Below, in pieces: positions 48,409 to 64,000 of a stretch of 64,000 nt of DNA. Each line of letters opens with the position of its first letter. Within the stretch, counting starts at the first letter, position 1. The notes below the pieces were generated by a model that saw nothing but the letters and a program-made list of their open reading frames with translations, was not told the DNA's origin and ran no database searches. The stretch is taken from the NCBI GenBank assembly GCA_964651815.1, contig CAZYWG010000002.1, forward strand, positions 28,522 through 92,521, given 5' to 3'. Source of the stretch: an uncultured Gammaproteobacteria bacterium. Lineage in GTDB: Bacteria; Patescibacteriota; Microgenomatia; Levybacterales; GWA1-39-11. The position numbers were made by a program, and so were the translations under genes.

Positions 48409-48966
48409 CTAAGAATTGCTATTTGCGAGGGTTTTTAATTTTTTAAAATCATCTATAAATACTTGTTTGAATTTTTGAAAACGTATTGCAGCTGCCGGAT
48501 GATAAGAGAAAAAATATTTTACTCCATTTCTTATAAGTATTTTTCCATGTTCTTTTGCAACAGGTATTTTCTCACCTAAAACACCACGCGCAGCAACGCT
48601 ACCCATTAAAACTACAATTTTGGGTTTTATTACAGCTAATTGTTTTGACAAATGTATCATTCCATGCAAAATGTCGCGCTCAGTTGGAGTTTTATATACC
48701 GGTAAATATTTAACTGGACTTGTTATGTAAACCTCGTCTTCTTTCAGTCCAATTGAGAGAATAGTTGAGCGTAATAATTTTCCAGACCTACCTACAAACG
48801 GTCTCCCGGTTGCTGCCTCCGTTTTCCCGGGAGCCTCGCCAATAAATATTATTTTGGCGTCCGGACTTCCTTCTCCTGGGACAGCCATTCCGATTTTGTC
48901 TTTTTTGCAAATTTCACAATTTTCAATTTCCTCTGCTATTTTCCTAAGTTGCGTTGCTTTATTCAT
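48409..48966 (-). CDS. uracil-DNA glycosylase, family 4
   Basis: CEICKK...GEGSPDAKIIFIGEAPGKTEAATGRPFVGRSGKLL...HPAAAIR. The start was placed at the internal ATG 48966. The track start at 49038 would add a dubious TM segment and overlap the divergent HK gene. Confidence 0.75.
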   Translation of the reverse strand: MNKATQLRKIAEEIENCEICKKDKIGMAVPGEGSPDAKIIFIGEAPGKTEAATGRPFVGRSGKLLRSTILSIGLKEDEVYITSPVKYLPVYKTPTERDILHGMIHLSKQLAVIKPKIVVLMGSVAARGVLGEKIPVAKEHGKILIRNGVKYFFSYHPAAAIRFQKFKQVFIDDFKKLKTLANSNS

Positions 48967-49029
48967 AACAAAGATTATAACAAACATTATTATTGCCATT
49001 GCAATTGTAAAGATGTACACTACTCTCAG

Positions 49030-50181
49030 ATGCTTCAAGGTATATACATATCGGCATTAAATTTTCTAAGTCCTCAAACTCTTGAAGAAACTTATAAAAC
49101 TGCAGTCCGCGAAGCAACAAAAATTACACAATCAGATTACGGAACGCTTTATTTAAGATTAAATGGAGAGCTGACTCGTGTTTATACAAACTTTCCTAAA
49201 TTTAAGACCTTAGTTCCAAGAAAAACGGGTTTTACTCAGAAGTCATTCGAAACTAAAAAGTCATATGTTATAGCAAGTTCTAAACTAGCAAAAACTCACC
49301 CTGATCTTCTAGAGAAAGGTATTAAATCTCTTATCATAATTCCTTTAATACATCACAAAAAATCAATTGGAGTTCTTTCTTTGCAGGCCAAAAATACCAA
49401 ACATTTTACTAAGGAAAGAATTGATGCGCTCAGGGTATTTGGTTCACTTTTGAGTCTCGCGATTGAAAAAAATAGACTTTACTTGGATATGCAAAACGCC
49501 CTTAAAACTCGGGATCTTTTTATTTCTATGGCGGCACATGAATTGCGTACACCCACGACAACCATACAAGGCTATACACAAATGATGATAAAAAAGTACG
49601 CAAAAGGCGAGAAGTTACCACTCAAATGGATTGAAATTTTAAATTCTGAGACAATTAGGCTTAATAATTTGCTTAAGGAGCTTTTACAAATCGAGCAAAT
49701 AAAAACAGGTCAATTTAAGTACACCTGGAAAAAAAATAGCTTACTAGAAATAATTGATAGGGTTTTAGCATATTCAAAAGTAAGTCATCCGCACCATAAA
49801 GTAATTTTCAAAAATATGTTGAAAGGCCGTGACCATATGTACTATTGCGATTTTGACAAAATCATGCAAGTTTTGATAATTCTTGTTAACAATTCGGCAA
49901 AGTTTTCAAAAAATCACTCGACAATTGAGGTTGGCCTATCGGACAAGGATTCATTTTTTAATTTATGGGTAAAAGACTATGGCAGTGGAATAACAAAAGA
50001 CGATTTGTCTCATATTTTTGAGGGATTTTACAAAGGGAAAGACAATTCAAAGGATGGGTTTGGACTTGGTCTTTTTTTAGCCGAGAATATTGTTAGAAGA
50101 CACTATGGAACTATTTTCGCGACATCGAGTCCTGGCCGTGGAACAAAAATAGAAATGAAACTACCGATATTCAAAAAGTGA
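49030..50181 (+). CDS. cytoplasmic sensor histidine kinase (GAF-like N-domain, HisKA, HATPase_c)
   Basis: H-box ISMAAHELRTPTTTIQGY, N-box ILVNNSAKFS, G1 DYGSGI, G2 GFGLGLFLAE. The start was chosen at ATG 49030 (MLQGIY...). The track start at 48949 is possible. Confidence 0.8.
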   Translation: MLQGIYISALNFLSPQTLEETYKTAVREATKITQSDYGTLYLRLNGELTRVYTNFPKFKTLVPRKTGFTQKSFETKKSYVIASSKLAKTHPDLLEKGIKSLIIIPLIHHKKSIGVLSLQAKNTKHFTKERIDALRVFGSLLSLAIEKNRLYLDMQNALKTRDLFISMAAHELRTPTTTIQGYTQMMIKKYAKGEKLPLKWIEILNSETIRLNNLLKELLQIEQIKTGQFKYTWKKNSLLEIIDRVLAYSKVSHPHHKVIFKNMLKGRDHMYYCDFDKIMQVLIILVNNSAKFSKNHSTIEVGLSDKDSFFNLWVKDYGSGITKDDLSHIFEGFYKGKDNSKDGFGLGLFLAENIVRRHYGTIFATSSPGRGTKIEMKLPIFKK

Positions 50182-50183
50182 AT

Positions 50184-50513
50184 TTATGAATCAGACTTTA
50201 TTTTTCTGATATCCTCAAGTAGTTCTTTCTTAACCAATCCGGCCGCTTTTATAATTTTTTCTTCCGCGTCAACTACTTTCTCATTTAAAAATTTCCAAAT
50301 TTTTTCGTGATTGAGGGTATTTATGTATGAAACAAATGCCTTTTTATCCTCAGACGTGAGCTCTGACAAAATTGTATCAAGTATTACTTGATGTAAGTGC
50401 GACTCTGCTAAATCTTTTAAATGACTTTTCTCGGTATCTGACATGTGAAGTGAATCAATTTCTAACTCAATTGACTCCATCTCAATTTTAAAGCTATAAA
50501 AATGTTTAATCAT
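50184..50513 (-). CDS. hypothetical acidic helical protein
   Basis: The ORF, with a 4-nt overlap with the upstream gene. No motif. Confidence 0.35.
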   Translation of the reverse strand: MIKHFYSFKIEMESIELEIDSLHMSDTEKSHLKDLAESHLHQVILDTILSELTSEDKKAFVSYINTLNHEKIWKFLNEKVVDAEEKIIKAAGLVKKELLEDIRKIKSDS

Positions 50514-51463
50514 TTAATCTCAACAGGGCCTAGTGGTATTTTATCACCCGGATCATCAATAAAAAAATAAAGGACTGGCCCTTTTTGTTGTCCATCTTTT
50601 CTTTCAAGATATGTCATAACCTCAGGCGAACCACCAAGTTGTTTTCCTGTTGACTCACCGGGCCCCGCATCCCCAATTACCGCAACTACTGCTTTTCCAT
50701 TTTCCGGATTAACAACAAGCATTTTGCGGTATTTAAAAAATGAAATATATTCTCCAGTATGCTCGGCAAACCCGGGTGCCAGAAAAGTCTGAGTCGCAAT
50801 ATAATATTTTTCTCGCTCTATATCTTTTTGGGTAAGTGCTTCTTTTGATGGAGCAAAATACCCCCATGCTCCTAATCCCGGCGCCATTCCCGAATTATAA
50901 GTTTGCGAGGAATCCGAATCTTCAAAGTGAGTTTCAATATTGTCTCCTGGATACAACATTAAATGCTGCTCAGCCCCTACGTATCCATAGGAGCGATTTA
51001 AGCGAATTCCGCTAAGCTCGGGAACTATTTTAAATCCAAAATCCCTTGATAATATCCCTGAGATAGAACTTTCCTCATCAGGAGTTAAAGCGCGGACTTC
51101 TTTTGGGAGAAAAGATGAAAGATCAGAAACTAAAAAAACATTCTTTTCTACAGGAAGTCTTTGTTCTTCAACGGCAGGCAATGTGTTTGGTTGAAGATAT
51201 CCCGCGACAGGACTTGAAAGAAGCATGAGTGCAGAAACAGAACCAATTGCAAAATTTTTTGTCCCGTTTACAAAATCTTCAACTATGTCTCCGTGCTTTT
51301 CCCAAAACGCAGTTTGAAATTCTCTGTGTTTTGAAACCCACTTCTTTGAAAGTTTTTCGTAAGAACCCGAATTTTTATTATCCATTACATTAATAATACC
51401 AAAAAAATCAGGCAGTATTGAAGCAATGAGGAAAAACCAGTATACTACCTCTATGGCAAGCAT
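50510..51463 (-). CDS. membrane-anchored protein with a possible RlpA-like double-psi beta-barrel (DPBB) C-terminal domain
   Basis: N-terminal TM helix (VVYWFFLIASILPDFFGII). The C-terminal KMLVVNPENGKAVVAVIGDAGPGESTGKQLGGSPEV resembles the RlpA/3D V-x-V-x-D-x-GP block. Confidence 0.4.
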   Translation of the reverse strand: MLAIEVVYWFFLIASILPDFFGIINVMDNKNSGSYEKLSKKWVSKHREFQTAFWEKHGDIVEDFVNGTKNFAIGSVSALMLLSSPVAGYLQPNTLPAVEEQRLPVEKNVFLVSDLSSFLPKEVRALTPDEESSISGILSRDFGFKIVPELSGIRLNRSYGYVGAEQHLMLYPGDNIETHFEDSDSSQTYNSGMAPGLGAWGYFAPSKEALTQKDIEREKYYIATQTFLAPGFAEHTGEYISFFKYRKMLVVNPENGKAVVAVIGDAGPGESTGKQLGGSPEVMTYLERKDGQQKGPVLYFFIDDPGDKIPLGPVEIK

Positions 51464-51762: not shown

Positions 51763-52683
51763 ATGACATCTGAAGCATTTTTTATAGAACTACAAAGGCT
51801 GATATCTTCACACCCAAAGAGGAATTCGCATAACGTAAATTCTGAAGACTGCGATTATGGAGATCAACTTTATTTTTGCAAAAATATGCTCTACTGTTTT
51901 GATTCCGTGCGCTCTGCGGATTGTATATATGGTACAGACATCCATAATTCTGTCAAATGTGTCGATTGCGACTATATGGATAAATCCGAACTTTCATATG
52001 AATGTGTAGACAGTCGCAGTTGTTTCAATTCAAATTACTTGGAGTATTGTTCAAATCTGACCGATTCATCATATTGCTATGACTGCCATAACTGCAGCAA
52101 TACTTTCGGATGTGTTGATCTTAGAAACAAGTCATTTTGCATATTCAATAGACAGCTTTCTGAAGAGGAATATAAGAAAACAATTGAAAAATACAAAATA
52201 TTGTCTACGGAAAAAGTACTTTCTATGGTTGAGGAGCTTAAAAAAAAATATCCCCTAACTCAGACCCGAGGTTTAAACAATGTAAACTCGCCTTATGGGA
52301 ACAATACGGACGACAGCCGTGATAGCTACTTATGTTTTGATTCAAATTCGCTTGAGAATTGCGGTTACTTATATGATTGCGGCGAAAGCAAATATAGCTA
52401 TGATGGAACCTTCTCAAGTGATCTGGAACTTTCTTACGAATCTATAGATTCGGGAGTTTTATTTAACTGCAATTATTCTTTGTGGTCGGGAAATTCTCTA
52501 GACAGTAACTATATCGTTTCGTGTGTCGATGTTAAAAATTGTCTCGGTTGTGTTAACCTTGGACATAAAGAGTATTGTATTTTGAATAGGCAATTTACGA
52601 AAGAGGAATACGAAAAAATTGCGCCGGTCATCTTAAAAGAATTGGTCGAAAAAAATTTGGGTTGGGGAAATTTAATATTCTAA
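51763..52683 (+). CDS. cysteine-rich repeat protein (34 Cys; two internally duplicated halves)
   Basis: Repeating about 13-aa units of the type C-x-D-C / YCYDC...C..L.NK.FCI. Both halves end in FCIFNRQLSEEEY and YCILNRQFTKEEY respectively. No signal peptide. Confidence 0.5.
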   Translation: MTSEAFFIELQRLISSHPKRNSHNVNSEDCDYGDQLYFCKNMLYCFDSVRSADCIYGTDIHNSVKCVDCDYMDKSELSYECVDSRSCFNSNYLEYCSNLTDSSYCYDCHNCSNTFGCVDLRNKSFCIFNRQLSEEEYKKTIEKYKILSTEKVLSMVEELKKKYPLTQTRGLNNVNSPYGNNTDDSRDSYLCFDSNSLENCGYLYDCGESKYSYDGTFSSDLELSYESIDSGVLFNCNYSLWSGNSLDSNYIVSCVDVKNCLGCVNLGHKEYCILNRQFTKEEYEKIAPVILKELVEKNLGWGNLIF

Positions 52684-54989
52684 ATTATTGGCTCGGGAAA
52701 ATCAGTATCAGTATTAGTCATTAATTTCTCTGCCGAACTACTCCAATTTTTAATTTCGTTTTCAACAGCTGTTTTGTTACTACCGTATTTTACTCTTGAA
52801 TTGTCAATAATTTCCCTTGAATAATCAATTCCGGGTTTTGGGACATTAATGGTTTTGGCAGAAAAAGGTGGCGTAAGCTTGCCATCAACAGACATTTTAA
52901 TGTACATTTCGCGGGTGTTAAGATTAATCATATCATCCGCAGAAAATGTGGGAGCAAATTCGTGGGATAGATATGCCGCATCATCTCCTCCAACTGCAAA
53001 TGAAATAATTGTACCTACATTCCCAAAAGCCGTTGCTTTTACATCATCTGGAAGTTGTGCAATATATTGATGTGCAATTGTTAAATCAAGATGATATTTA
53101 CGGGCTTCTGATAAAATAGAAGAAAATGCGTCTGTCGCAAAGTTTTGGAACTCATCAACATAAAAATAAAAATCGCGCCTCTCTTCTTCTCTGACTTTTG
53201 CTCGGGCAAGAGCCGCCTGCTGAATTTTTGTTATAAACATAGATCCCAAAAATGCGGCATTCTCATCGCCCACTTTACCTTTTGAAATATTCAATAAAAC
53301 GATTTTCCCTTCATCCATAAATTTCCCAAAATCAAGGACGTTTTTCCCTTGTCCAACCATATTTCTTATTGTGGGATTGGAAACAAACTGGCCAACCTTG
53401 TTTAGAATCGGAATAACCGCGTCATTTGAAAAACGCTCGTTCCATGATGAAAATTCATTAACCCAAAAACTTTTTACAACAGGATCCTGGATTTGTTTAA
53501 TAACCCGTTGGCGATATGTTGTGTCGGAAAGAATTCTTGGAATGCCTAAAACATTCGAGTCGGGTGTTTCGAGCAGAGCAAGCGTTATAAATCTGATTAT
53601 ATGTTCCATCCTGGAATTCCAATTAGATTCAAATTGCTTTTTGAATATTGCTATGAAAAAAGTTGCTAAATGTTGTCTCATCTCAGGGTCGCGAACCGGT
53701 TCAAGCGGATTAAATGCAATGGGAAAATCCCTGTCTGCTGGGTTTACATAAACAACATCCTTTATTCTTTTTTGGGGGACATATTTTAAAAGCTCTTGTG
53801 CTAAGTCTCCGTGCGGGTCCAGAATGCAACAGCCTTCTCCACCTTGAATATCCGCAATCAAAAGTAATTGCATTAACCGGCTTTTTCCGCTTCCAGTTTT
53901 CCCAACAACATATAAATGACGCCTTCTGTCAATTCTTTTTAAGCCGAATCTTTTGCCTTCATTTCTGTAATTTGTTTCTCCAAAAATTGAAATTTCATTT
54001 TCCTTGACGCTTCCTTCACGGGGTAAAATATCTGGTGCCGGCGCTCGCTTTGAGGTAGTATTCACAACGTTTGAAACTACAGTTCCTTTGTATGGAAAAT
54101 GATAAACGGTTGCTATCTCCGGAATTGACCAAAGATCCCCATTTTCAAAAATTCGCGCCGAGTATGCATTAGCCAAACCTTCACTAATCCTCCCTTTTTT
54201 GAATTCGTTGCCGTGGCTTTTTAACGCTTTATATAAATTTGCAATTGTCGTAAGTTTGGATTTGGCACTCGTGTGGTCCGGAGCAGAATAAGCAATCCTT
54301 AGTTTTCCAAAAAAAACATCACCATCAAATTTTGTGGCCTCGCGCGTTTCGTCCGTGGAACGACCCGAAAGTCTATACACGAACCCAGTTATACCCCGCT
54401 CCCAGAATTTTGAACCGGTGCGCTTTAGACACAATTGAACATAAACCTTTTCGTTCATTGCAGTTTTTGATAAGACAGCAGAAAGATTTTTGAGTAAATC
54501 TTCTTGAATGTTGCGCCAAGTAATAAGCGAATTAACGCTGGATTTTTTAAAACCGAGTTCTATAACAATTGGATGGTCGTTTGAAGAAAAATAATCTTTT
54601 GTTTCCTCAAGCTCCGCTTCTGGAAATTGTGCATAAAGCTGAGATTCAATTATGTTTTTAAAGTGTTTTGGAATAACTATATAAAAAGTCATGAATTGCT
54701 CATTTGATACCATTTCTAGACTTAAATGAGTACCTGATGGAAGAAGTCTGTGAATAGACTTAAGAAAAGCTTCCATTGCTTCCTCTTTTTGTTCGTTGTT
54801 TGAAGGAATTTTTATTCTCAGAAAAACATTCGCCCGCTCCTCAAGTTTTTTAGAAAGCATTTGTTGGAAAAGCAATTTCTTGACTATTTTCCAGACAAAA
54901 AATGCGACAATTGGAGTACTCACGACAACAAAAAGGAGTTCGACGAGCAAAATAATTCCGTTTATTAGAAAGTCAATAACACCTTGCAT
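52680..54989 (-). CDS. VirB4/VirD4/TraG-like (FtsK-HerA superfamily) P-loop ATPase with an N-terminal TM anchor
   Basis: Walker A YVVGKTGSGKSRLMQ, then ILDPHGDL, Walker B YFYVDEFQNF, and an N-terminal hydrophobic hairpin. Convergent 4-nt stop overlap with the Cys-rich gene. Confidence 0.65.
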   Translation of the reverse strand: MQGVIDFLINGIILLVELLFVVVSTPIVAFFVWKIVKKLLFQQMLSKKLEERANVFLRIKIPSNNEQKEEAMEAFLKSIHRLLPSGTHLSLEMVSNEQFMTFYIVIPKHFKNIIESQLYAQFPEAELEETKDYFSSNDHPIVIELGFKKSSVNSLITWRNIQEDLLKNLSAVLSKTAMNEKVYVQLCLKRTGSKFWERGITGFVYRLSGRSTDETREATKFDGDVFFGKLRIAYSAPDHTSAKSKLTTIANLYKALKSHGNEFKKGRISEGLANAYSARIFENGDLWSIPEIATVYHFPYKGTVVSNVVNTTSKRAPAPDILPREGSVKENEISIFGETNYRNEGKRFGLKRIDRRRHLYVVGKTGSGKSRLMQLLLIADIQGGEGCCILDPHGDLAQELLKYVPQKRIKDVVYVNPADRDFPIAFNPLEPVRDPEMRQHLATFFIAIFKKQFESNWNSRMEHIIRFITLALLETPDSNVLGIPRILSDTTYRQRVIKQIQDPVVKSFWVNEFSSWNERFSNDAVIPILNKVGQFVSNPTIRNMVGQGKNVLDFGKFMDEGKIVLLNISKGKVGDENAAFLGSMFITKIQQAALARAKVREEERRDFYFYVDEFQNFATDAFSSILSEARKYHLDLTIAHQYIAQLPDDVKATAFGNVGTIISFAVGGDDAAYLSHEFAPTFSADDMINLNTREMYIKMSVDGKLTPPFSAKTINVPKPGIDYSREIIDNSRVKYGSNKTAVENEIKNWSSSAEKLMTNTDTDFPEPII

Positions 54990-55855: not shown

Positions 55856-56569
55856 CTAACTATTAAATAATGACTTTATTATTGCAAATGCACGCTCAAC
55901 TTCCCTATCTTCTAAAATTAGTGTTAGTTCGTGAAGAGTCGAAACTACCTCCAGAATGTTGACACCTTCCCACGCAAGGGATTTTAAGAAAAAGTAATAG
56001 ATTCCAGAATTATTTAATGCTTCACCGGGTAAATAAACCGTAAGAGTGGAAATATTTTTCAGATTTATCTGAGGATTTTTACTTTCAATTGTCGCTTTTT
56101 CCTGGTCAAATAAATCTTGGCTTAAAATAAACGACGTTTCGTGTATTCCCTGATTCTTTAAATATAATGAACGTGAAGTAGAATCCCGTGACAAAAGAAC
56201 GGATAAACCCGCAGTTTCATTATTTGGAAGAACGAAAAAAATAAGATTAGAACGAACCGCAATCTCAGGTGCACTTTTAAACACGCTTTGCTGCTGGTAT
56301 TTTGGTTTAAATTCAGACTCGAGCCTGTTGAGCGCCATAACAATTGATGCAACAGAAATTTTTTTGATGAGCATTTGTTCCAGCTCCGGCTTTATATAAC
56401 GCGCAAGTGAAGAATAATTTATAAGACCCTTAGATATCGCTTCCGACAAGTAACGCGAGCGCTCAACAATTTTTTTTGTAGCTTCTGGTACAGTTATCAT
56501 AAATTCAATGTCATTGCGAGGAACGAAGTTACGAAGCAATCTCTTGCAAGAAATTGCAGATACCTCCAC
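55856..56569 (-). CDS. hypothetical protein (possible ACT-like regulatory domains)
   Basis: GTG start in the track. The internal ATG at 56500 is an alternative. No firm motif. Confidence 0.35.
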   Translation of the reverse strand: MEVSAISCKRLLRNFVPRNDIEFMITVPEATKKIVERSRYLSEAISKGLINYSSLARYIKPELEQMLIKKISVASIVMALNRLESEFKPKYQQQSVFKSAPEIAVRSNLIFFVLPNNETAGLSVLLSRDSTSRSLYLKNQGIHETSFILSQDLFDQEKATIESKNPQINLKNISTLTVYLPGEALNNSGIYYFFLKSLAWEGVNILEVVSTLHELTLILEDREVERAFAIIKSLFNS

Positions 56570-56685: not shown

Positions 56686-57003
56686 ATGTTTAAAGGAGAA
56701 AGACCAAGCTTAGACCCAGACTACGGAAATTATATTGGAAACATGGTCAAATTAGAATCAACAAGGGTTGTAAATAAACAACCCATTGTAAAACAAACGC
56801 TAGCGCTGGTTCGCAATCCCGAACCGGATCAAATAAATGGACTTGACGGAGATGGATTTGTTGATAGACGATTCAATCCCTATGCTGAACCCAAAAGAGC
56901 TTTTGATGAAGAGGCAAAGGCTAGAGCGGAAAGCGAGGGAATGGTAGCAAGAAATGTTCAAAGACGAATACCCCGCGGCCAAGCTGTTAGAGTAAGCAGG
57001 TAG
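56686..57003 (+). CDS. hypothetical 105-aa protein
   Basis: Strong SD AAAGGAGG 8 nt upstream of the ATG. No motif. Confidence 0.45.
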   Translation: MFKGERPSLDPDYGNYIGNMVKLESTRVVNKQPIVKQTLALVRNPEPDQINGLDGDGFVDRRFNPYAEPKRAFDEEAKARAESEGMVARNVQRRIPRGQAVRVSR

Positions 57004-57059: not shown

Positions 57060-58631
57060 ATGGCAAAACCAACAGCAAAAAAACAGGATCGCTATGCACT
57101 AATAAGTGTTTTTGATAAAGCGGGAATTGTAGATTTTGCAAAGGTTTTAGATAAAATAGGCTACAAAATAATTTCAACCGGCGGCACTGCAAAAGTCTTA
57201 ACAGGAGCCGGGATTAAAATCATCCCCATCGAACAAGTCACTGGTGAACCTGAGAGCTTTGAAGGGAGAATGAAAACAATAAGCTTTCAGATTGAATCGG
57301 GGATTCTATACGATAGGACTAACCCAAAACACCTCAAAGAAGCCGAAAAACTTAAAATTAAACCTATAGATATTGTAGTAAACAACCTCTACCCGTTTGA
57401 ACAATCCGTTGCCAAGGTAAGCGTAAAACTTGTGGATGCTGTTGAAAATATTGACGTTGGCGGCCCTACAATGATTCGCGCGGCGGCCAAAAACTTCAAA
57501 AATGTTTTAATTGTCGTAAACCCAAAAGATTATTCGGAAGTTGCGTCAAAATTGCAAAAAAATGATCTAAACGAAAAATATCGTCAGACTTTGGCCGCAA
57601 AAGCCTTTCAACATTTGTCTTTCTATGATTCCCAAATTGCACGATTCCTGAATCAAGAAGAATTTCCGGAAGAATTGACTCTTCCAGGGAGAAAAGCGTT
57701 GACCCTTAGATATGGAGAAAATCCTCACCAAAAATCCGCTGTATATATAGAACCAAATACAAACTCTCCGCTTGCAAAACTTCAAAAACACACAGGACGG
57801 GATCTTTCATACGTTAATTTTACCGATATTGCGGCTGGTCTTGAATCTGTCCGTTTTTTTGATGAGCCGGCAGCAGTTGTCATAAAACATAATAGCCCTT
57901 CTGGTGTGGCACTTGGACAAGACGCCGCGGAATCATTAGAACGCGCTGTTGCTGCAGATCCTGAATCTGCTTTTGGAGGGGTAATGGTATTAAATAAGCC
58001 TCTCGATTTAAAAACTGCCAAAACTTTTGCCGGATTTAAAGAAGAAAACGGAGTTTTAATAGATATAGTTGCAGCGCCGTCAATCAATTCCGACGCGATG
58101 GAATTTATAAAAACAGTTCGAAAGACGACTGGAATTTATACTTTTGGGAAAATTCCTGTTAAGCGAACTAATAATCAACATGTGAGGTTTTTTGATGGAG
58201 GATTCGTTGTTCAAGATTGGGACGACGGCGCGAATTTTGATAATTGGAAAGTAGCTGGGAAAGTTAAACCCACAAAAAAGCAAATGGAACAGATGCAACT
58301 CGCATGGAAGTTTGTTGCAAGAATAAAATCAAATACAATCCTTGTAGTAGATAAAAATCTACCAATGACAAGAGGAATTGGCTCGGGTCAGACGTCGCGT
58401 GTAAGATCCACTAAAATCGCGCTGGAACAAGCGGGTTTATATTCCAAAGGCGCGATTCTTGCAAGCGACAGCTTCTTCCCATTCGACGACAGTGTAAAAC
58501 TGGCTGCTAAGGCAGGAATTGCCGCAATAGTAGAACAAGGAGGCTCAATTAATGATCAGCTTTCGATCAACGCGGCAGACAAGGCTGGCATACCTATTAT
58601 ATTCACTGGCGAACGCCGCTTCTGGCACTGA
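57060..58631 (+). CDS. purH: bifunctional AICAR transformylase / IMP cyclohydrolase
   Basis: N-terminal MGS-like cyclohydrolase domain (YALISVFDKAGIVDFAKVL...ISTGGTAK) and a C-terminal AICARFT domain. Confidence 0.9.
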   Translation: MAKPTAKKQDRYALISVFDKAGIVDFAKVLDKIGYKIISTGGTAKVLTGAGIKIIPIEQVTGEPESFEGRMKTISFQIESGILYDRTNPKHLKEAEKLKIKPIDIVVNNLYPFEQSVAKVSVKLVDAVENIDVGGPTMIRAAAKNFKNVLIVVNPKDYSEVASKLQKNDLNEKYRQTLAAKAFQHLSFYDSQIARFLNQEEFPEELTLPGRKALTLRYGENPHQKSAVYIEPNTNSPLAKLQKHTGRDLSYVNFTDIAAGLESVRFFDEPAAVVIKHNSPSGVALGQDAAESLERAVAADPESAFGGVMVLNKPLDLKTAKTFAGFKEENGVLIDIVAAPSINSDAMEFIKTVRKTTGIYTFGKIPVKRTNNQHVRFFDGGFVVQDWDDGANFDNWKVAGKVKPTKKQMEQMQLAWKFVARIKSNTILVVDKNLPMTRGIGSGQTSRVRSTKIALEQAGLYSKGAILASDSFFPFDDSVKLAAKAGIAAIVEQGGSINDQLSINAADKAGIPIIFTGERRFWH

Positions 58632-58674: not shown

Positions 58675-61638
58675 CTAGGCTGCACGAAGAGTATCCCAAT
58701 CACTTTGAATACTTAATATTGCTTGCTCTTGTTCTGTTAAAGATCCACCGTCATTAAGCTTACCCGCAATTTGAGATACACGATCTATCATTGTGACAAA
58801 CACCGACTCCATTGCATGACGAAACATAACCTCGTGATCTTTTGCTCCGGGATAATTATGAGCTATCTCATGCCCAAAAGTCCTCAAGGCCTCAGTAAAA
58901 TTCACATCCAAAAGTCCTTTGTGTAAACCTATTGCTTTTTGGCCCAAATTAATTCCTTTACTACCGGTTCCCTCATAAATAAAAAGATCATTTACTACGG
59001 CCATGCCAGTCGTAAGCTCCGCATACGTTTTAAGTAGTCCCAGTTGCGCAAGTTGCCTTTCTGAGGGACCTACTACAATTTCAAATTCATTAACGTCATC
59101 CCCTTCCGGATTCAACCGACTTACAACGCTTCTTAGCTTCTGCATCAACGCATTTCGAGTAACATCGGCAGGTGTTGCTTCCGTCACTGTTCGTACTGTT
59201 GAAATTTCAGCTTGATTTTGCTCATTAACTAAGTCCACTAAATGTCTTCCGGTTAAGTAACCTGCGCTCTGACCAAGCCTACCGTAAAAATCTCCACTAT
59301 TTCTCCACTCCATATATTTTTCGATTTCAGATTTGCCGTGTACTTCAATTTTTGGTTTCGGCACTACCTTATCCAGAGCATTAACCATACCAACTAATCC
59401 CGGTAAATTTTCGTCCATTTTTGCAACTCTTTCTTTTTCACTATCAGAAATTTTAACTTCTCTTTCAATAACTTCTCCATGTTGAATTAGTTCTGGACTG
59501 TCCGGTTGAACAACATGAACTTCCCCGAATTGTCTCTGAAGTTCTTTGTGTCTATTAATTAAGTCTTTTTCATCTTCTGCAAGAGCGGCCGGATCTTTTG
59601 AAATTGCTAAAATGTATAAATTTTCATCCTCGGCAGTCCAAGGCTTTTGATTACCAGGAAATATTTCTCCTATATCTTTTGGGCCCGCTTCTCCGGCTTG
59701 TCTGTCGGAAGAATCCGAGATGTCAATCTGCCCGACAATTTCTTCCCCCGAATCTCCTGCCGGATTCGCCTGCAAACCTTCCGCCAGAGCTGAGTTCGAC
59801 GCATTTTTTAAGGCTTCCCTAAATATGGAGGTGAACTCAGGATTGAAATCAATTTCAATAAAAGTACCTTGGTCATTTTCATTTTTGATATTTCTTGTAA
59901 TAAGAGCCGTTTCTTCCGTTGTAAAATCATATTTTGCATCAAATGTTGTTAAAAATTCTCCTTGAGATGTAAAAATCTTGTCAAAAACATGCTCGCTTAA
60001 ACCATATGCTACTACACCGCGCAATAAAAATAACAGTCTTTGGGCATCATCTTTTTGCTTTGGTAAAGCGTGGAACAGTAAATCTTTTGATATTTTATCT
60101 TTTAAATATAACCTGGCGGTGTCAGGTCTCTCTTCTCTTTCTTCCAATCTCAAAATATGAGGAGCAAGACGACTCGCCGCCATTTGCAAAAAAGCGGAAG
60201 GATCTTCTATTTCCGGAAAGTCTTCATAAAAAACCTCCATTCCAAATTCTTGGGCAAATTTTTCTTTTTCATGCTGAGGCAATTTAGGTGCTTCATTGCT
60301 TGCAACTTCAAGAGAACCTAGCTTGCTGCTCGCTTTTGGCATACCGATTTGTTCAAAATATGATGGGCAAATAATATATCCCTGTTTTTGTAGTTCGGCA
60401 ATTTGGCCACGGTCCGCAGCACGATCGAAACTCAAATACTTTTTTGATCCGAATTCTTTTGAGTAATTTTCTTTATCCCAACCCTTTTTATAAGGCAGTT
60501 TCCTTGCAAGTTTTTCTATTATTACACTTGCACCTTCCGCTTCACCGAAATTCGAATCAATATGTCCAGCCCACAGATATTCTGATGTGTGTAATTGTCC
60601 TACAACATCGTCCATCGACATATTACTAATCATGGGATCAAGATACTGCGCCAATTCAAATTGATTAACCGGCGGCCGATCAATACTCATTTTATATTTA
60701 ATGTTATTTAGTCTTATTGTTGCATTCTCTGGTCCAACCCAATAATCTTCTGCTGTTGCCCCCTTTCCTTTGTAATTCATAACTTGGCCGTTTATAAAAA
60801 GGCGTCCTCGAGTGGGGACTGATCCGTCTGATAATGGTAGCCATTTTATTGCTCCGTATTGATTTTCGTAATCCATATTTTGTAAATAAGGATTTTCTTT
60901 GGATACGCCAAGAGATGGTAGCTGCTGCAATGCTTGAACTACATCAGGGTTTGCAGTTGTAATAATATATGCATTTTTTCCGGTAGGACGTGCTTCAGCA
61001 ATATCAGCAACCAACCAATCATGATTTACACGATAACGTGGATCCAGATTCTGCATTTCCGCAAGCTCTCCATTAACCTGGGCAGCTTTTGCTAAACGAT
61101 AATGTACGGCCCATCCTTCTCCATCTATTTCAAATTGTTCAACTCCAAAGTCTCTTAAAAAACGAATTGCGGTTTGTTTAAGACCAATTCCGTTTCCACC
61201 GGCAGTATTAATATCTGCTGGTTTCTCCGAATGAGGACTTAAAACTCCTGTTGGATCGGCAAATGGCCAGTCTCCTTCTATTCTGAATTGTGTTGCGCCA
61301 TCTTTATGAGGAACACCCGAAAATCTTACTCCGTCAAGCGTACCGGGATGCTGAGGATTATGATCAACAAAGTTTTGAACGAGTTCTCTTGTAAGCCATG
61401 CGGCGTTGTACTCATCCCTAGATTTATCCAAAAAACTATCTGTAGCTATTGCGTGAACATCAACTTTTTTTCTTCTATAAAATTCCTGTAATAATCTTTG
61501 GTCTGTAACTACTCCGTCAATTTTTATTGCTGCATCAGGACGAACCTGACGCGCATCTCCTCTTCCCGGAATTAATCTTCTTAGTCCGCTAAATTTTGTA
61601 TCTTTGGGACCTCCGGCTCCCGCGTCTACTGGCTCCAT
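58675..61638 (-). CDS. orphan 987-aa protein with an N-terminal GHKL (Bergerat-fold) ATPase-like region and a C-terminal HExxH zincin-like motif
   Basis: N-box-like RELVQNFVDHN, G2-like NTAGGNGIGLKQTA, and C-terminal FGHEIAHNYPGAKDHE. GC is locally higher (about 43-50% in sampled segments) than the flanks. Confidence 0.5.
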   Translation of the reverse strand: MEPVDAGAGGPKDTKFSGLRRLIPGRGDARQVRPDAAIKIDGVVTDQRLLQEFYRRKKVDVHAIATDSFLDKSRDEYNAAWLTRELVQNFVDHNPQHPGTLDGVRFSGVPHKDGATQFRIEGDWPFADPTGVLSPHSEKPADINTAGGNGIGLKQTAIRFLRDFGVEQFEIDGEGWAVHYRLAKAAQVNGELAEMQNLDPRYRVNHDWLVADIAEARPTGKNAYIITTANPDVVQALQQLPSLGVSKENPYLQNMDYENQYGAIKWLPLSDGSVPTRGRLFINGQVMNYKGKGATAEDYWVGPENATIRLNNIKYKMSIDRPPVNQFELAQYLDPMISNMSMDDVVGQLHTSEYLWAGHIDSNFGEAEGASVIIEKLARKLPYKKGWDKENYSKEFGSKKYLSFDRAADRGQIAELQKQGYIICPSYFEQIGMPKASSKLGSLEVASNEAPKLPQHEKEKFAQEFGMEVFYEDFPEIEDPSAFLQMAASRLAPHILRLEEREERPDTARLYLKDKISKDLLFHALPKQKDDAQRLLFLLRGVVAYGLSEHVFDKIFTSQGEFLTTFDAKYDFTTEETALITRNIKNENDQGTFIEIDFNPEFTSIFREALKNASNSALAEGLQANPAGDSGEEIVGQIDISDSSDRQAGEAGPKDIGEIFPGNQKPWTAEDENLYILAISKDPAALAEDEKDLINRHKELQRQFGEVHVVQPDSPELIQHGEVIEREVKISDSEKERVAKMDENLPGLVGMVNALDKVVPKPKIEVHGKSEIEKYMEWRNSGDFYGRLGQSAGYLTGRHLVDLVNEQNQAEISTVRTVTEATPADVTRNALMQKLRSVVSRLNPEGDDVNEFEIVVGPSERQLAQLGLLKTYAELTTGMAVVNDLFIYEGTGSKGINLGQKAIGLHKGLLDVNFTEALRTFGHEIAHNYPGAKDHEVMFRHAMESVFVTMIDRVSQIAGKLNDGGSLTEQEQAILSIQSDWDTLRAA

Positions 61639-61699
61639 ACTTCAGTATAGCAAAATCAGGTGATCGTACAAATCCGACAATGGAGTATTATATGTATGA

Positions 61700-64000
61700 C
61701 TAGGGGTTAGTGTATTCTTTCCAGGATTTTATTTTTATGTCCTCGAGCTTTTTTTTAGTTATAGCTTTGATAAAGAGTTCTGCTTTTTGAAAATTGGTAA
61801 AAATAGGAATATTTTTGTCAACTGCCATGCGCCTCATTATATATCCATCCGCAAAATCTTTTCTTGCTTCGTCATCTGAAATATTTACTGCCATATCTAC
61901 TTCACCGTTCTGGAAATAATCGAGAATATTAGGATTTTTATTCTCATGTATTTTATTCAATTTTCTCACTCGTATCCCTTTTTTCTGAAAATAAGCGCTA
62001 GTTTTTTCTGTTGCAAAAAGAGGAATTTTTAGAGTTGCAAGACGTCTCGCACTTTCTAGAAATCTTGCTTTATTATCGTCTCCCCCAAGGCTTATAAAAA
62101 TTCCTTTCTTAGGGATTTTTCCTCCAACGGAAAGCTCCGCAAGTAAAAATGCTTCTTCAGCATCGTCTCCAAAACATGCAACTTCCCCAGTTGATGCCAT
62201 TTCTACATCTAAAACTGGATCTGCCCCAGTCAATCTAGCAAAAGAAAACTGCGCTACTTTTGCCGCAACAAAATCAAAATCAGCAAAATTATTATGTAAA
62301 TACTGAATTTTTTTATGGAAGAAGGCATCAGTTGCCGCTTCAATCATGTTAATTCCTGTCACTTTTGAAATGAATGGAAAAGTCCTTGATGCTCTGAGGT
62401 TAATTTCGATAACAGAAACTACGTTGTCGCGCGCTAAACATTGAATGTTGAATGGCCCAGTAATTTTAAGAGACGAAGCCAGATCGCGCGCTATTTTTTT
62501 AAGTGAGCGGAGAGTTTCAAAATAAATTTTTTGAGCCGGCAAAAGAATGGATGCGTCGCCCGAGTGGACTCCCGCATTTTCAACATGCTCCGAAACAACA
62601 AATATTTTTAACTCTCCATCTTCCGCAACGCAATCTACTTCAATTTCTTTTGCGTCTTTTATGAATTTAGAAACCGTTACCGGGTGGTCTTTTGAAACAA
62701 CTATTGTCTTGAAATATTTTAAAAGGTCTTCTTTGGTATAACAAACTTTCATATTACTTCCAGACAACACATAAGATGGACGGATCAATACTGGAAACCC
62801 TAAATTTTTGGAAAATTTTGTAACTTCTGAAACTTTTACAAATTTAAACCAAGATGGTTGACTGATTTTGAGTGAATCAAGAAGCGCCGAAAATTTAGTT
62901 CTGTCTTCAGCCCTATCAATATCTTTTGAACTCGTTCCCAAAATATGGCACCCATACGCATCCAGAGATTTTGCGCGATTATTAGGGGTTTGACCACCAA
63001 CTGAAATTATTACGCCGTATGAATTTTCAAAATCATAAATGTCAGCTATTCGCTCAAATGTCAATTCTTCAAAATAAAGACGGTCAGAAATATCATAGTC
63101 GGTTGAAACAGTTTCAGGATTGCAATTGATAGTAATTGAGCGCTTTTTGTTTTTCTTAAGTGCAAGAACTGTATTGACACTTGTCCAATCAAATTCCACT
63201 GATGAACCGATTCTATAAGGACCCGAACCCAAAACAATTACTCCTTCCTTTTTTAGCGGCTCAACATCATTGTGGCTTCCTGCATAAGTCATGTAAAGAT
63301 AATTGGTTTTTGCGGGAAATTCTCCTGCCAGAGTATCTATTTGAAAAACAGATGGAATAATATTGTATTTTTTACGAATCTCCCTAATTTCAAGCCCTTT
63401 TTTCCCAACCAGCATTCCAATTCTTTTGTCTGAAAACCCCAAGATCTTCAGTTTTAAAAGCGTATCAGCATCCAATTTTTTAGAGCTATATAGCTTCTTT
63501 TCTTCATCAACTATGTTTTTGATTCTGTAAAGAAACCAGGGGTCAATTCCTGAAAGCCGATAAATATCATCTACGGAATAACCTTCATAAAAAGCCCTCG
63601 CTATACCAAACATTCTGAAAGAGGTTGGTGCAAGTAGTGTTTTGATATCCGGCTTCTTGTTTTCGTTTCGGAAAACATCTTCATCAACTGCTCCTTCAAA
63701 ACCCAAATCAAGCATGCGCAGCGCCTTCTGATATGCTTCTTCAAAAGTTCTACCAATTCCCATCACCTCACCTACTGACCTCATACTGCTACCAATTACG
63801 TCTTCTGCGTGTTTGAATTTTTTCGTATCCCAACGCGGTATTTTAACCGTTACATAGTCTAATGCCGGCTCAAAACAAGATTGAGTTACTTCAGTTACCT
63901 TATTTTTTAATTCAGTTAAACTTTTCCCCAGCGCCAATTTCGCTGCAACATATGCAAGTGGATAACCGGTTGCTTTACTCGCTAAAGCTGAGCTACGTGA
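61700..64000 (-). CDS. carB: carbamoyl-phosphate synthase large subunit, C-terminal half plus MGS-like domain; the 5' end lies beyond the window
   Basis: ATP-grasp domain 2 (GVHSGDASILLPAQKI), an oligomerisation domain and C-terminal MGS-like GIFISLGGDDNK. The reading frame continues past nt 64000 (ASKATGYPLAYVAAKLALG). Confidence 0.9.
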   Translation of the reverse strand, partial: SRSSALASKATGYPLAYVAAKLALGKSLTELKNKVTEVTQSCFEPALDYVTVKIPRWDTKKFKHAEDVIGSSMRSVGEVMGIGRTFEEAYQKALRMLDLGFEGAVDEDVFRNENKKPDIKTLLAPTSFRMFGIARAFYEGYSVDDIYRLSGIDPWFLYRIKNIVDEEKKLYSSKKLDADTLLKLKILGFSDKRIGMLVGKKGLEIREIRKKYNIIPSVFQIDTLAGEFPAKTNYLYMTYAGSHNDVEPLKKEGVIVLGSGPYRIGSSVEFDWTSVNTVLALKKNKKRSITINCNPETVSTDYDISDRLYFEELTFERIADIYDFENSYGVIISVGGQTPNNRAKSLDAYGCHILGTSSKDIDRAEDRTKFSALLDSLKISQPSWFKFVKVSEVTKFSKNLGFPVLIRPSYVLSGSNMKVCYTKEDLLKYFKTIVVSKDHPVTVSKFIKDAKEIEVDCVAEDGELKIFVVSEHVENAGVHSGDASILLPAQKIYFETLRSLKKIARDLASSLKITGPFNIQCLARDNVVSVIEINLRASRTFPFISKVTGINMIEAATDAFFHKKIQYLHNNFADFDFVAAKVAQFSFARLTGADPVLDVEMASTGEVACFGDDAEEAFLLAELSVGGKIPKKGIFISLGGDDNKARFLESARRLATLKIPLFATEKTSAYFQKKGIRVRKLNKIHENKNPNILDYFQNGEVDMAVNISDDEARKDFADGYIMRRMAVDKNIPIFTNFQKAELFIKAITKKKLEDIKIKSWKEYTNP

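What the first reader, a model, noticed from the sequence alone, without database searches (positions are those of the whole stretch)
58675..61638. Orphan 987-aa GHKL-like / HExxH protein with locally raised GC, wedged between carB and purH
The longest ORF in the window has no recognisable housekeeping identity. Its N-terminus carries Bergerat-fold ATPase signatures: an N-box E-L-V-x-N-x-x-D-H (RELVQNFVDHN) and a MORC/Hsp90-style G2 box (GGNGIGLKQTA). The far C-terminus has a zincin HExxH motif (HEIAHN) followed by DHE. Long acidic low-complexity segments lie in between. Sampled 60-nt segments have about 45-52% GC, against about 38% in the neighbouring housekeeping genes, which suggests horizontal acquisition. 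A GHKL ATPase combined with a metallopeptidase-like module recalls ATP-dependent effector, defence or chaperone-protease proteins. I do not know this exact architecture.
Basis: partly seen in the sequence, partly recalled or inferred. Interest (0 to 1): 0.75.

Follow-up and report, generated by a model that had tools for sequence, protein, structure and literature searches.

The report
Unannotated GHKL ATPase–zinc protease fusion
This 987-residue gene belongs to a small, unannotated bacterial family that joins an Hsp90/topoisomerase-type ATPase domain, a degenerate second copy of that fold and a Wss1-like zinc protease; it looks native to the genome and is not an orphan.

Summary

Two further findings are new. 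Residues about 476-622 form a second, degenerate Bergerat fold. In about 25 divergent homologues, a single membrane-spanning segment separates the ATPase module from the protease module.

- The gene is not an orphan. There are 116 close homologues and 358 representatives among 1.84 billion proteins, mostly Patescibacteria plus Vampirovibrionia.
- Its GC content is not raised (0.401, z +0.97; GC3 is below the window mean).
- Nothing supports a defence or mobile-element role. PADLOC, phage, plasmid and viral-contig searches found nothing, and no neighbour is conserved.

The most likely function is a metalloprotease regulated by ATP through its GHKL module. That mechanism is inferred, not shown. 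No curated library covers the family, and I found no paper describing this architecture.

The parts
58675..61638 (-). Complete ORF, 987 aa plus stop codon. The ATG at 61638 lies 61 nt downstream of the carB stop on the same strand. The gene is convergent with purH across a 43-nt gap.
61522..61638 (-). Residues 1-39: basic, disordered N-terminal tail (pI 10.3, pLDDT below 50 for residues 1-33). It is poorly conserved and has no signal peptide or TM segment.
60904..61521 (-). Residues 40-245: first Bergerat-fold (GHKL) domain. It carries the conserved catalytic motifs and an N-terminal strap with invariant S73 and Y77.
61357..61389 (-). Residues 84-94, RELVQNFVDHN: N-box (motif I, ExxxNxxD). R84, E85, Q88, N89, D92 and N94 are invariant.
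   Evidence: MutL's KELVENSLDA aligns here, but only at E 0.15.
61162..61203 (-). Residues 146-159, AGGNGIGLKQTAIR: G2-box glycine loop (GxxGxG) followed by invariant K154 and Q155 and near-invariant R159.
60214..60903 (-). Residues 246-475: conserved beta-rich and alpha/beta insert. It carries invariant N283-G-Q285, D320-R321-P-P and W356. No confident fold match was found, and no S5-type transducer was detected.
59773..60213 (-). Residues about 476-622: second, degenerate Bergerat-fold domain (pseudo-GHKL). It has no N-box and no glycine loop. R540 is invariant in the helix LRGxxxxGL.
59635..59772 (-). Residues 623-668: acidic disordered linker (pI 4.05, pLDDT 35-46). About 25 divergent homologues have a single TM-like hydrophobic segment at this position.
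59254..59634 (-). Residues 669-795: helical domain preceding the protease (pLDDT about 80-92). No fold assignment.
58678..59253 (-). Residues 796-987: WLM/Wss1-like mini-zincin metallopeptidase domain.
58822..58881 (-). Residues 920-939, TFGHEIAHNYPGAKDHEVMF: zinc site. T920 lies at -3; H923, E924 and H927 form the HExxH; H935 is the third ligand; F939 follows. The spacing is HExxHx7H here, whereas the family consensus is HExxHx5H, as in Wss1.
   Evidence: The Wss1 ligands H115, H119, H125 plus E116, T112 and N83 are taken from PMC5557861.

Best explanation
The gene encodes a member of an uncharacterised protein family found mainly in Patescibacteria (CPR) and Vampirovibrionia, and it looks native to this genome.

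Shown (on predicted structure and conservation):
- The protein carries a GHKL-type domain with an intact N-box and glycine loop.
- A conserved insert follows it.
- A second, degenerate Bergerat-fold domain lacking both ATP motifs follows the insert.
- A variable linker comes next.
- The protein ends with a helical domain and a Wss1/WLM-like mini-zincin whose HExxH...H zinc site is complete.

Inferred: it works as an ATP-regulated metalloprotease.
- ATP binding and hydrolysis in the first GHKL domain would drive a clamp-like conformational switch. The switch could act between two protomers or against the in-cis pseudo-GHKL domain.
- That switch would control substrate capture or unmask the zincin active site.
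- Mini-zincins of this type are known to be auto-inhibited until a switch releases them. Proabylysin is blocked by its own C-terminal tail, and the same has been proposed for Wss1.
For: - Second Bergerat fold.
- Catalytic residues of both centres are conserved in at least 98% of members, so both are under purifying selection.
- The two modules co-occur in essentially every full-length member. They also co-occur in a distant sister group with different motif variants, which points to functional coupling.
- The zincin shares the Wss1 core residues: Thr at -3, HExxH, the third His, and the Asn on the beta strand.
- Auto-inhibition of proabylysin, and the proposal for Wss1, come from PMC5557861.
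- GC and GC3 are native, and the gene stands alone in housekeeping contexts.
Against: - No biochemical evidence exists, and all structural evidence rests on predicted models whose coordinates I could not inspect.
- The canonical G1-box Asp that binds adenine has no conserved equivalent. Position 123 varies between D, N, E and H, and D128 is present in only 85 of 113 sequences.
- No sequence profile links the N-module to any GHKL family. Only 2 of 51 members hit HATPase_c_3, at E 0.047.
- No S5-type transducer domain with a gamma-phosphate sensor was found.
- In about 25 homologues a single TM segment with a positively charged N-side flank separates the modules. That would put the ATPase inside the cell and the protease outside, so direct substrate hand-off cannot be general.
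- In the sister group the presumed catalytic Glu is Asp.
Confidence: 0.45

Rival explanations
1. The protein is an Hsp90-like chaperone fused to a triage protease. The N-module would hold non-native client proteins as HtpG does, and the zincin would degrade those that fail. This would give proteostasis capacity to reduced genomes.
For: - The best Foldseek hits are Hsp90 NTD-MD structures (E 1.7e-5, about 520-620 aligned columns).
- The second Bergerat domain is closest to Hsp90, TRAP1, GRP94 and HtpG N-terminal domains and also matches sacsin SR1.
- The protein is acidic throughout, like cytosolic chaperones.
- It sits in housekeeping neighbourhoods.
Against: - No Hsp90 middle or C-terminal domain was identified, and hhalign against E. 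coli HtpG is not significant.
- The family is rare: 358 representatives in 1.84 billion proteins, and 29 loci in 185,579 species genomes, though that scan was limited by its peptide patterns. It is therefore not a core proteostasis factor.
- TM-bearing members put the protease on the other side of the membrane.
Confidence: 0.2
2. In many lineages the protein is a bitopic membrane protein whose two modules act in different compartments. A cytoplasmic GHKL switch would control an extracytoplasmic surface protease by inside-out signalling, or would report on it. Possible substrates are surface or pilus proteins, or host-cell proteins, in episymbiotic bacteria. The soluble form in this window would be a derived variant.
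For: - About 25 divergent members have one hydrophobic segment in the linker. The upstream flank carries net charge +2 to +7, and the downstream stretch is neutral or acidic and rich in Pro/Thr/Ser.
- Sister-group members carry N-terminal membrane anchors.
- The TM-bearing Peregrinibacteria homologue P0114 overlaps the 3' end of a PilB-type (MshEN + T2SSE) pilus ATPase gene.
- The family is confined to CPR and Vampirovibrionia. My own knowledge, not tested here, is that many of these organisms live attached to or prey on other cells.
Against: - The window protein and its closest relatives have no TM segment or signal peptide.
- Topology was inferred only from hydropathy and the positive-inside rule, not from a dedicated predictor or an experiment.
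- The PilB adjacency is a single observation, and no neighbour recurs across the family.
Confidence: 0.15
3. The protein is a DNA-associated clamp protease. A MORC- or topo II-like GHKL clamp would load on DNA and position a Wss1/SprT-like protease to remove DNA-protein crosslinks.
For: - The closest solved relatives of the C-terminus are the crosslink-repair proteases Wss1, SpWss1b and Spartan.
- In one clade the gene is embedded in a dUTPase-ThyA-DHFR-Tmk operon (L007, L028 and L034/L036). Here it lies between carB and purH, and in L002 it is near CTP synthase and IMPDH.
Against: - Every domain is acidic across the family (median pI 5.1-5.5).
- No DNA-binding domain, S5 transducer or zinc-binding subdomain was detected.
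- TM variants would place the protease outside the cell.
- The nucleotide-metabolism neighbourhood is limited to a few lineages and is not family-wide.
Confidence: 0.1
4. One reading: a horizontally acquired defence or conflict effector that combines a MORC-like ATPase with a peptidase effector.
For: - GHKL/MORC modules and zincins both occur in conflict systems, according to literature listed but not read in detail.
- The phyletic distribution is patchy across distant classes, and the position differs in every genome.
- One homologue, P0074, lies among transposases and Fic and RhuM genes.
Against: - There is no PADLOC hit at E<=10.
- GC and GC3 are native.
- Phage, plasmid and IMG/VR collections hold no homologue.
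- There are no conserved partner genes.
- Most neighbourhoods are housekeeping or cell-envelope genes.
Confidence: 0.07

Closest known systems
GHL-class GHKL ATPases (type II topoisomerase/ParE ATPase domains, MORC, MutL, Hsp90/TRAP1, SMCHD1)
   Same: - Invariant ExxxNxxD N-box and GxxGxG loop.
- A conserved N-terminal strap precedes the N-box helix.
   Different: - No sequence-profile link to any of these families.
- No conserved DxGxG G1 box.
- No S5 transducer or Hsp90 middle domain was found. A novel insert and a second, degenerate Bergerat fold follow instead.
- The two structure methods disagree on which subfamily is closest.
Wss1 / WLM-domain metalloproteases (ScWss1 5xbn, SpWss1b 5jig/5ln5)
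   Same: - Shared T-x-x-HExxHN-x(4)-HD-x-x-F signature, and the Asn on the preceding strand.
- 24 of 51 members hit the Pfam WLM model, and one reaches its threshold.
   Different: - The window protein gets no Pfam WLM hit, and its spacing is HExxHx7H.
- The family is bacterial, acidic, and has no ubiquitin/SUMO- or DNA-binding modules.
- It is fused to GHKL domains.
- There is no evidence for a role in DNA-protein crosslink repair.
Minigluzincins / YgjP-like (DUF45) / M48-type mini-zincins (proabylysin 4jiu, projannalysin, selecase, 3c37)
   Same: - Profile E 2e-3.
- YgjP-like model hits in 24 of 51 members. NCBI names homologue P0072 a 'DUF45 domain-containing protein'.
   Different: - Those proteins are about 100-aa stand-alone zymogens or membrane-protease cores. 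Here the zincin is the C-terminal about 190 aa of a roughly 1000-aa multidomain protein.
- Auto-inhibition by a C-terminal tail was not tested here.
AAA+ ATP-dependent proteases with fused protease domains (FtsH, Lon)
   Same: The resemblance is functional only: one polypeptide carries an ATPase module and a protease module (a zinc HExxH protease in FtsH). This is my own knowledge.
   Different: - The ATPase here is a GHKL fold, not AAA+, and no AAA+ domain was detected.
- The domain order and the likely oligomeric logic differ: a dimeric clamp as opposed to a hexameric translocase.
- This protein is not a member of that family.
Sacsin repeat regions (Hsp90-like SR1 domains in tandem)
   Same: - Giant sister-group proteins carry two copies of the N-module.
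   Different: - There is no sequence similarity, and NCBIfam and Pfam give no hits.
- Sacsin has no protease domain.

Membership tests
GHKL (Bergerat-fold) ATPase superfamily | Bergerat alpha/beta sandwich fold | tested here: met
   [not shown]
GHKL (Bergerat-fold) ATPase superfamily | Motif I / N-box ExxxNxxD (general-base Glu, Mg-binding Asn) | tested here: met
   E85 110/110, N89 111/111, D92 111/111. The sister group has Asp at the Glu position.
GHKL (Bergerat-fold) ATPase superfamily | Motif II / G1 box DxGxG with the adenine-binding Asp | tested here: inconclusive
   The family reads IxGxWPFxDPTG. Position 123 is D38/N33/E12/H8, and D128 is present in 85 of 113 sequences.
GHKL (Bergerat-fold) ATPase superfamily | Motif III / G2 box GxxGxG (phosphate-binding lid hinge) | tested here: met
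   G147 113/114, G150 114/114, G152 112/114, followed by K154 114/114.
GHKL (Bergerat-fold) ATPase superfamily | Match to the curated sequence models (Pfam HATPase_c or HATPase_c_3) | tested here: not met
   The window protein gives no hit at E<=10. Two of 51 members reach E 0.047, below threshold. The N-module profile finds no GHKL chain in the PDB.
GHKL (Bergerat-fold) ATPase superfamily | ATP binding and hydrolysis | not testable with these tools
   Needs biochemistry.
GHL subclass (GyrB/ParE, MutL, MORC) | S5-fold transducer domain supplying a Lys to the gamma-phosphate | tested here: not met
   [not shown]
Hsp90 family | NTD-MD-CTD architecture recognisable by sequence, with a middle-domain catalytic Arg loop and a C-terminal dimerisation domain | tested here: not met
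   No Pfam or NCBIfam hit. hhalign against E. coli HtpG is not significant. The Foldseek similarity is explained in part by the second Bergerat fold.
WLM domain (Pfam PF08325; Wss1-like) | Mini-zincin fold | tested here: met
   [not shown]
WLM domain (Pfam PF08325; Wss1-like) | HExxHx5H zinc site with catalytic Glu, plus Thr at -3 and the Asn on beta3 (PMC5557861) | tested here: met
   H923, E924, H927 and H935 are conserved at 98% or more; N897 is 106/109; T920 is 70/108. They are aligned to the Wss1 residues. The window protein has x7 spacing where the consensus has x5.
WLM domain (Pfam PF08325; Wss1-like) | Score at or above the Pfam gathering threshold | tested here: not met
   The window protein gives no hit. 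24 of 51 members hit below threshold. Only P0078 reaches it, at 26.5 against a cutoff of 26 bits.
SprT/Spartan-type DNA-protein crosslink proteases | DNA-binding elements (zinc-binding subdomain or basic region) and DNA-dependent activity | tested here: not met
   No such domain was detected. All domains are acidic, pI 5.1-5.5. DNA dependence of activity is not testable here.
Known anti-phage defence systems (PADLOC-DB) | Match to a defence-protein model and a conserved system neighbourhood | tested here: not met
   No PADLOC hit at E<=10. No neighbour recurs in more than 4 of about 30 loci.

The most novel reading that the evidence does not exclude
This family is the first ATP-dependent protease built on a GHKL ATPase instead of an AAA+ ATPase. 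An active GHKL domain would pair in cis with a degenerate GHKL domain, an intramolecular mimic of the usual ATP-driven homodimer. That pairing would gate a Wss1-like zinc protease. In some lineages the signal would cross the membrane to a protease displayed on the cell surface of ultra-small episymbiotic bacteria.
Probability: 0.25. Interest if true: 0.85.

Novelty: new variant of a known kind. Interest (0 to 1): 0.6.

Why it matters
To my knowledge, every characterised energy-dependent protease uses an AAA+ motor. A conserved fusion of a GHKL ATPase to a metalloprotease would be a second, independent way to couple nucleotide state to proteolysis.

The family is also an example of conserved "dark" proteins in Candidate Phyla Radiation genomes. 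It is about 1000 aa long, has two near-invariant catalytic centres, and is covered by no curated library. The tandem active and degenerate Bergerat folds, together with the variants split by a membrane segment, give concrete hypotheses that can be tested. The catalytic residues to mutate are already identified: E85 and N89 in the ATPase, and E924 in the protease.

Tried and rejected
- **Single-sequence library searches.** Pfam, NCBIfam, PADLOC and PDB-phmmer gave nothing for this protein.
- **N-module profile against PDB sequences.** It returned only a spurious deformylase hit at E 1.1.
- **hhalign of the N-module against E. coli HtpG and MutL.** Neither was significant. MutL's N-box aligned, but only at E 0.15. 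The templates were single sequences, so this test was weak.
- **hhalign of Bergerat domain 1 against domain 2.** E 0.07, so an internal duplication is not demonstrated.
- **A conserved nucleotide-metabolism operon.** I considered this after seeing carB/purH here, the dUTPase-ThyA operon in L007 and CTP synthase/IMPDH in L002. I rejected it as a family-wide feature: clustering neighbours over about 30 independent loci found no partner in more than 4 loci, and the dUTPase/ThyA context is confined to one clade.
- **Horizontal transfer or a mobile element.** Rejected on composition and on the lack of any phage, plasmid or viral-contig relative.
- **Naming the host lineage from purH homologues.** This failed because the source names were truncated and showed no organism.
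- **The stray precomputed PF26404 annotation on P0010.** It was not reproduced.
- **Literature searches.** Three searches for a GHKL + zincin/WLM fusion, or for a CPR-specific family of this kind, found no description. The library is limited to open-access papers, so this is not proof that none exists.
- **Promoter and terminator scans.** Results were at background levels.
Full report
**Observation**

The ORF is real. It runs from 58675 to 61638 on the minus strand, encodes 987 aa, and is the longest ORF listed in the window. Its neighbours are as described. carB lies upstream on the same strand (61700-63937, cut by the window end; full length 1072 aa on matching contigs). purH (57060-58631) is convergent with it. 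The quoted motifs are all present.

The composition claim does not hold. Gene GC is 0.401, against a mean of 0.375 (sd 0.027) for 53 ORFs in the window, so z is +0.97. That is lower than purH (0.408). GC3 is 0.274, below the window mean of 0.298 (z -0.72). The small excess is at codon position 1 (0.559), so it reflects an Asp/Glu/Gly/Ala-rich protein and not foreign DNA.

**Not an orphan, but not annotated**

Pfam, NCBIfam, PADLOC and a PDB sequence search return nothing for this protein, even at E<=10. Even so, a search of 5.8 billion proteins finds 116 homologues. Most are 900-1040 aa, full-length, and 31-58% identical.

The sources that give names call them Daviesbacteria, Berkelbacteria, Paceibacterota, Gracilibacteria and Peregrinibacteria. 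A genome scan adds Levybacteria, Nomurabacteria, Magasanikbacteria and records labelled Saccharibacteria. It also adds Vampirovibrionia/Caenarcanales, which lie outside the CPR.

An exhaustive profile search of 1.84 billion representatives finds only 358 proteins at E<=1e-3 and 135 at E<=1e-30. The family is therefore real, widespread across Patescibacteria classes, and rare.

I could not name the host lineage of the window. The closest homologues, at 56-58% identity, are from Levybacteria and Daviesbacteria.

**Conservation**

Counting only sequences that cover each column:

| Centre | Residue | Conserved |
|---|---|---|
| GHKL | E85 | 110/110 |
| GHKL | N89 | 111/111 |
| GHKL | D92 | 111/111 |
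| GHKL | G150 | 114/114 |
| GHKL | K154 | 114/114 |
| Zincin | H923 | 108/109 |
| Zincin | E924 | 108/109 |
| Zincin | H927 | 108/110 |
| Zincin | H935 | 109/110 |

Other invariant positions are S73, Y77, W124, N283, Q285, D320, W356 and R540. The N-box and the HExxH co-occur in essentially every full-length member. Both catalytic centres are therefore under strong purifying selection, and the motifs are not chance matches.

**Structure**

An AlphaFold2 model built from the 116-sequence alignment has mean pLDDT 88. Only residues 1-33, 624-662 and 791-794 fall below 50.

- **Foldseek against the PDB** puts Hsp90 NTD-MD first (E 1.7e-5, probability 1.0). GRP94, MORC2/3, Topo VI-B and GyrB follow. 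For the C-terminus it finds proabylysin 4jiu (probability 0.99, TMt 0.61) and the M48-type peptidase 3c37.

The methods disagree on which GHKL subfamily is nearest.

**Sequence support differs between the two ends**

The zincin has sequence support:
- A profile of the C-terminal module hits SpWss1b at E 1.2e-3, proabylysin at 2e-3 and Wss1p at 8e-3. All align through one signature: family HEvAHNasmdHdneF against SpWss1b HELTHNVHGEHDSSF.
- 24 of 51 members hit the Pfam WLM and YgjP-like (DUF45) models. One member, P0078, reaches the WLM threshold.
- The Wss1 structure paper lists the zinc ligands H115, H119 and H125, the catalytic E116, and the conserved T112 and N83 (PMC5557861). The family has equivalents of all of them: T920, H923, E924, H927, H935 and N897.
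- The window protein has a two-residue insertion, giving HExxHx7H where the family consensus is x5.

The GHKL module cannot be detected by sequence. The N-module profile finds no GHKL chain in the PDB. hhalign against E. coli HtpG and MutL is not significant. Only 2 of 51 members touch HATPase_c_3, at E 0.047.

The canonical G1-box Asp has no conserved equivalent. That is the main caveat on ATP binding.

**New anatomy: a second Bergerat fold**

From the secondary structure (helix, two strands, helix, four strands, long helix) I place this second fold at residues about 476-622. It lacks both the N-box and the glycine loop, so it is a degenerate pseudo-GHKL. Its similarity to domain 1 is not significant (hhalign E 0.07), although the weak alignment is in structural register and skips exactly the glycine loop.

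Residues 246-475 are a conserved insert carrying the invariant NGQ and DRPP motifs. I found no confident fold match for it.

**New anatomy: the linker**

In the window protein the linker (residues 624-662) is acidic and disordered. About 25 divergent members, including named Gracilibacteria and Peregrinibacteria proteins, have a single hydrophobic segment at that position. Its upstream flank is strongly positive (+2 to +7), and the downstream stretch is neutral or acidic. By the positive-inside rule, the ATPase module would be cytoplasmic and the helical-plus-zincin module would be outside the cell. I cannot reconcile this with direct substrate hand-off between the modules, and I record it as unexplained.

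**Sister group**

More distant relatives of about 530-770 aa repeat the same two-module logic with different motifs: R-D-x-x-Q-N-F-x-D, GxxGEGxK, and a C-terminal HELxHKxGGDxSxxFS. Several carry an N-terminal membrane anchor. Giants of 1400-1900 aa carry two N-modules. That the pairing persists despite motif drift argues for functional coupling.

**Genomic context**

No neighbour is conserved. Clustering the neighbours across about 30 independent loci finds no partner in more than 4 loci. The contexts seen were:
- carA-carB and purH in this window;
- rhamnose-synthesis and glycosyltransferase genes;
- CTP synthase, IMPDH and an amidase;
- transposases and Fic;
- a tight dUTPase-ThyA-DHFR-Tmk operon, confined to one clade;
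- MetH;
- a PilB-type ATPase.

Phage, plasmid and viral-contig collections hold no relative, and there is no PADLOC hit. The defence and horizontal-transfer reading is not supported.

**Mechanism**

What is shown, on predicted structure and conservation, is a domain series: GHKL, insert, pseudo-GHKL, linker, helical domain, then a WLM-like zincin, with two conserved catalytic centres.

What is inferred is that the GHKL module acts as an ATP-driven conformational switch that gates a protease which would otherwise be auto-inhibited. The switch could work by homodimerisation, as in the gyrase/Hsp90/MutL class, or against the pseudo-GHKL domain in cis. I put this at 0.45.

The rivals are:
- an Hsp90-like chaperone with a triage protease (0.2);
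- a protein that spans the membrane in many lineages, with the modules acting in different compartments (0.15);
- a DNA-clamp crosslink protease (0.1), weakened by uniformly acidic domains (median pI 5.1-5.5) and by the absence of any DNA-binding element;
- a defence effector (0.07).

**Novelty**

Both catalytic folds are known. No curated library covers the family. I found no paper describing the architecture in three searches of an open-access library, which does not prove that none exists. I classify it as a new variant of a known kind.

If the ATPase does drive or gate the protease, this would be, to my knowledge, the first energy-dependent protease not built on an AAA+ motor.

**Limits**
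- All structural evidence comes from predicted models.
- I could not inspect coordinates or PAE.
- Membrane topology rests on hydropathy and flanking charge alone.

Noticed in passing
Homologues P0062, P0064, P0073, P0079, P0098-P0101, P0104-P0109, P0112-P0116 (linker region, roughly residues 600-730 of each): About 25 divergent family members have one TM-like hydrophobic segment between the ATPase module and the zincin module. The N-side flank is positively charged. This implies the ATPase is cytoplasmic and the protease is outside the cell. The window protein has an acidic disordered linker at this position.
   Followed up: partly
Proteins P0194, P0195, P0198, P0202-P0204, P0208-P0213; giants P0181, P0191, P0199, P0205: A distant sister group repeats the GHKL-like + zincin pairing with altered motifs: RDxxQNFxD, GxxGEGxK and HELxHKxGGDxSxxFS. 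In the last motif an Asp sits where the third His would be. Some members have N-terminal membrane anchors followed by coiled-coil-like sequence, and some proteins of 1400-1900 aa carry two N-modules.
   Followed up: partly
L007:7562-12828 (also L028 and L034/L036): In one clade the homologue sits 4-5 bp from its neighbours on the same strand, between dUTPase and ThyA-DHFR-Tmk, with dCMP deaminase upstream and PyrB/PyrI/PyrC downstream. In this window it lies between carB and purH, and in L002 it is near CTP synthase and IMPDH. This may be a weak recurring link to nucleotide metabolism. It is not family-wide.
   Followed up: partly
L041:4314-8952: The TM-bearing Peregrinibacteria homologue P0114 begins 11 nt before the end of an upstream PilB-type (MshEN + T2SSE) type IV pilus assembly ATPase gene. 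This is a single observation.
   Followed up: no
window 52680-54989 (-): A 769-aa ORF matches TrwB/VirD4-type coupling-protein and HerA-like ATPase models (E 3.7e-8 and 2.2e-7). It lies about 4 kb from the target gene.
   Followed up: no
window 48949-50181 (+): A GAF-HisKA-HATPase_c histidine kinase. It is a canonical GHKL protein that Pfam detects easily (E 2.3e-21). That contrasts with the target's GHKL domain, which sequence searches cannot detect.
   Followed up: no
window 50510-51463 (-), 51763-52683 (+), 55856-56569 (-), 56686-57003 (+): Four nearby ORFs of 105-317 aa have no Pfam match at E<=1e-5.
   Followed up: no
window 61639-61699 (-): The 61-nt gap between carB and the target has no obvious Shine-Dalgarno sequence. 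It has TATAAT-like and TATACT-like hexamers, the latter ending about 6 nt before the ATG. This may indicate a very short leader or a gene-specific promoter. Promoter scan counts were at background level.
   Followed up: partly
L014, L015, L016, L021, L026 ('uncultured Gammaproteobacteria') and L024 ('Candidatus Altiarchaeota archaeon'): Several genome records that carry family members have taxonomic labels at odds with the otherwise CPR/Vampirovibrionia distribution. These are probably automatic labels or binning errors, not real occurrences.
   Followed up: no
window 41450-43834 (+): This 794-aa ORF has the highest GC of any ORF in the window (0.439), but its GC3 is ordinary (0.291). As with the target, the excess comes from amino-acid composition.
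   Followed up: no
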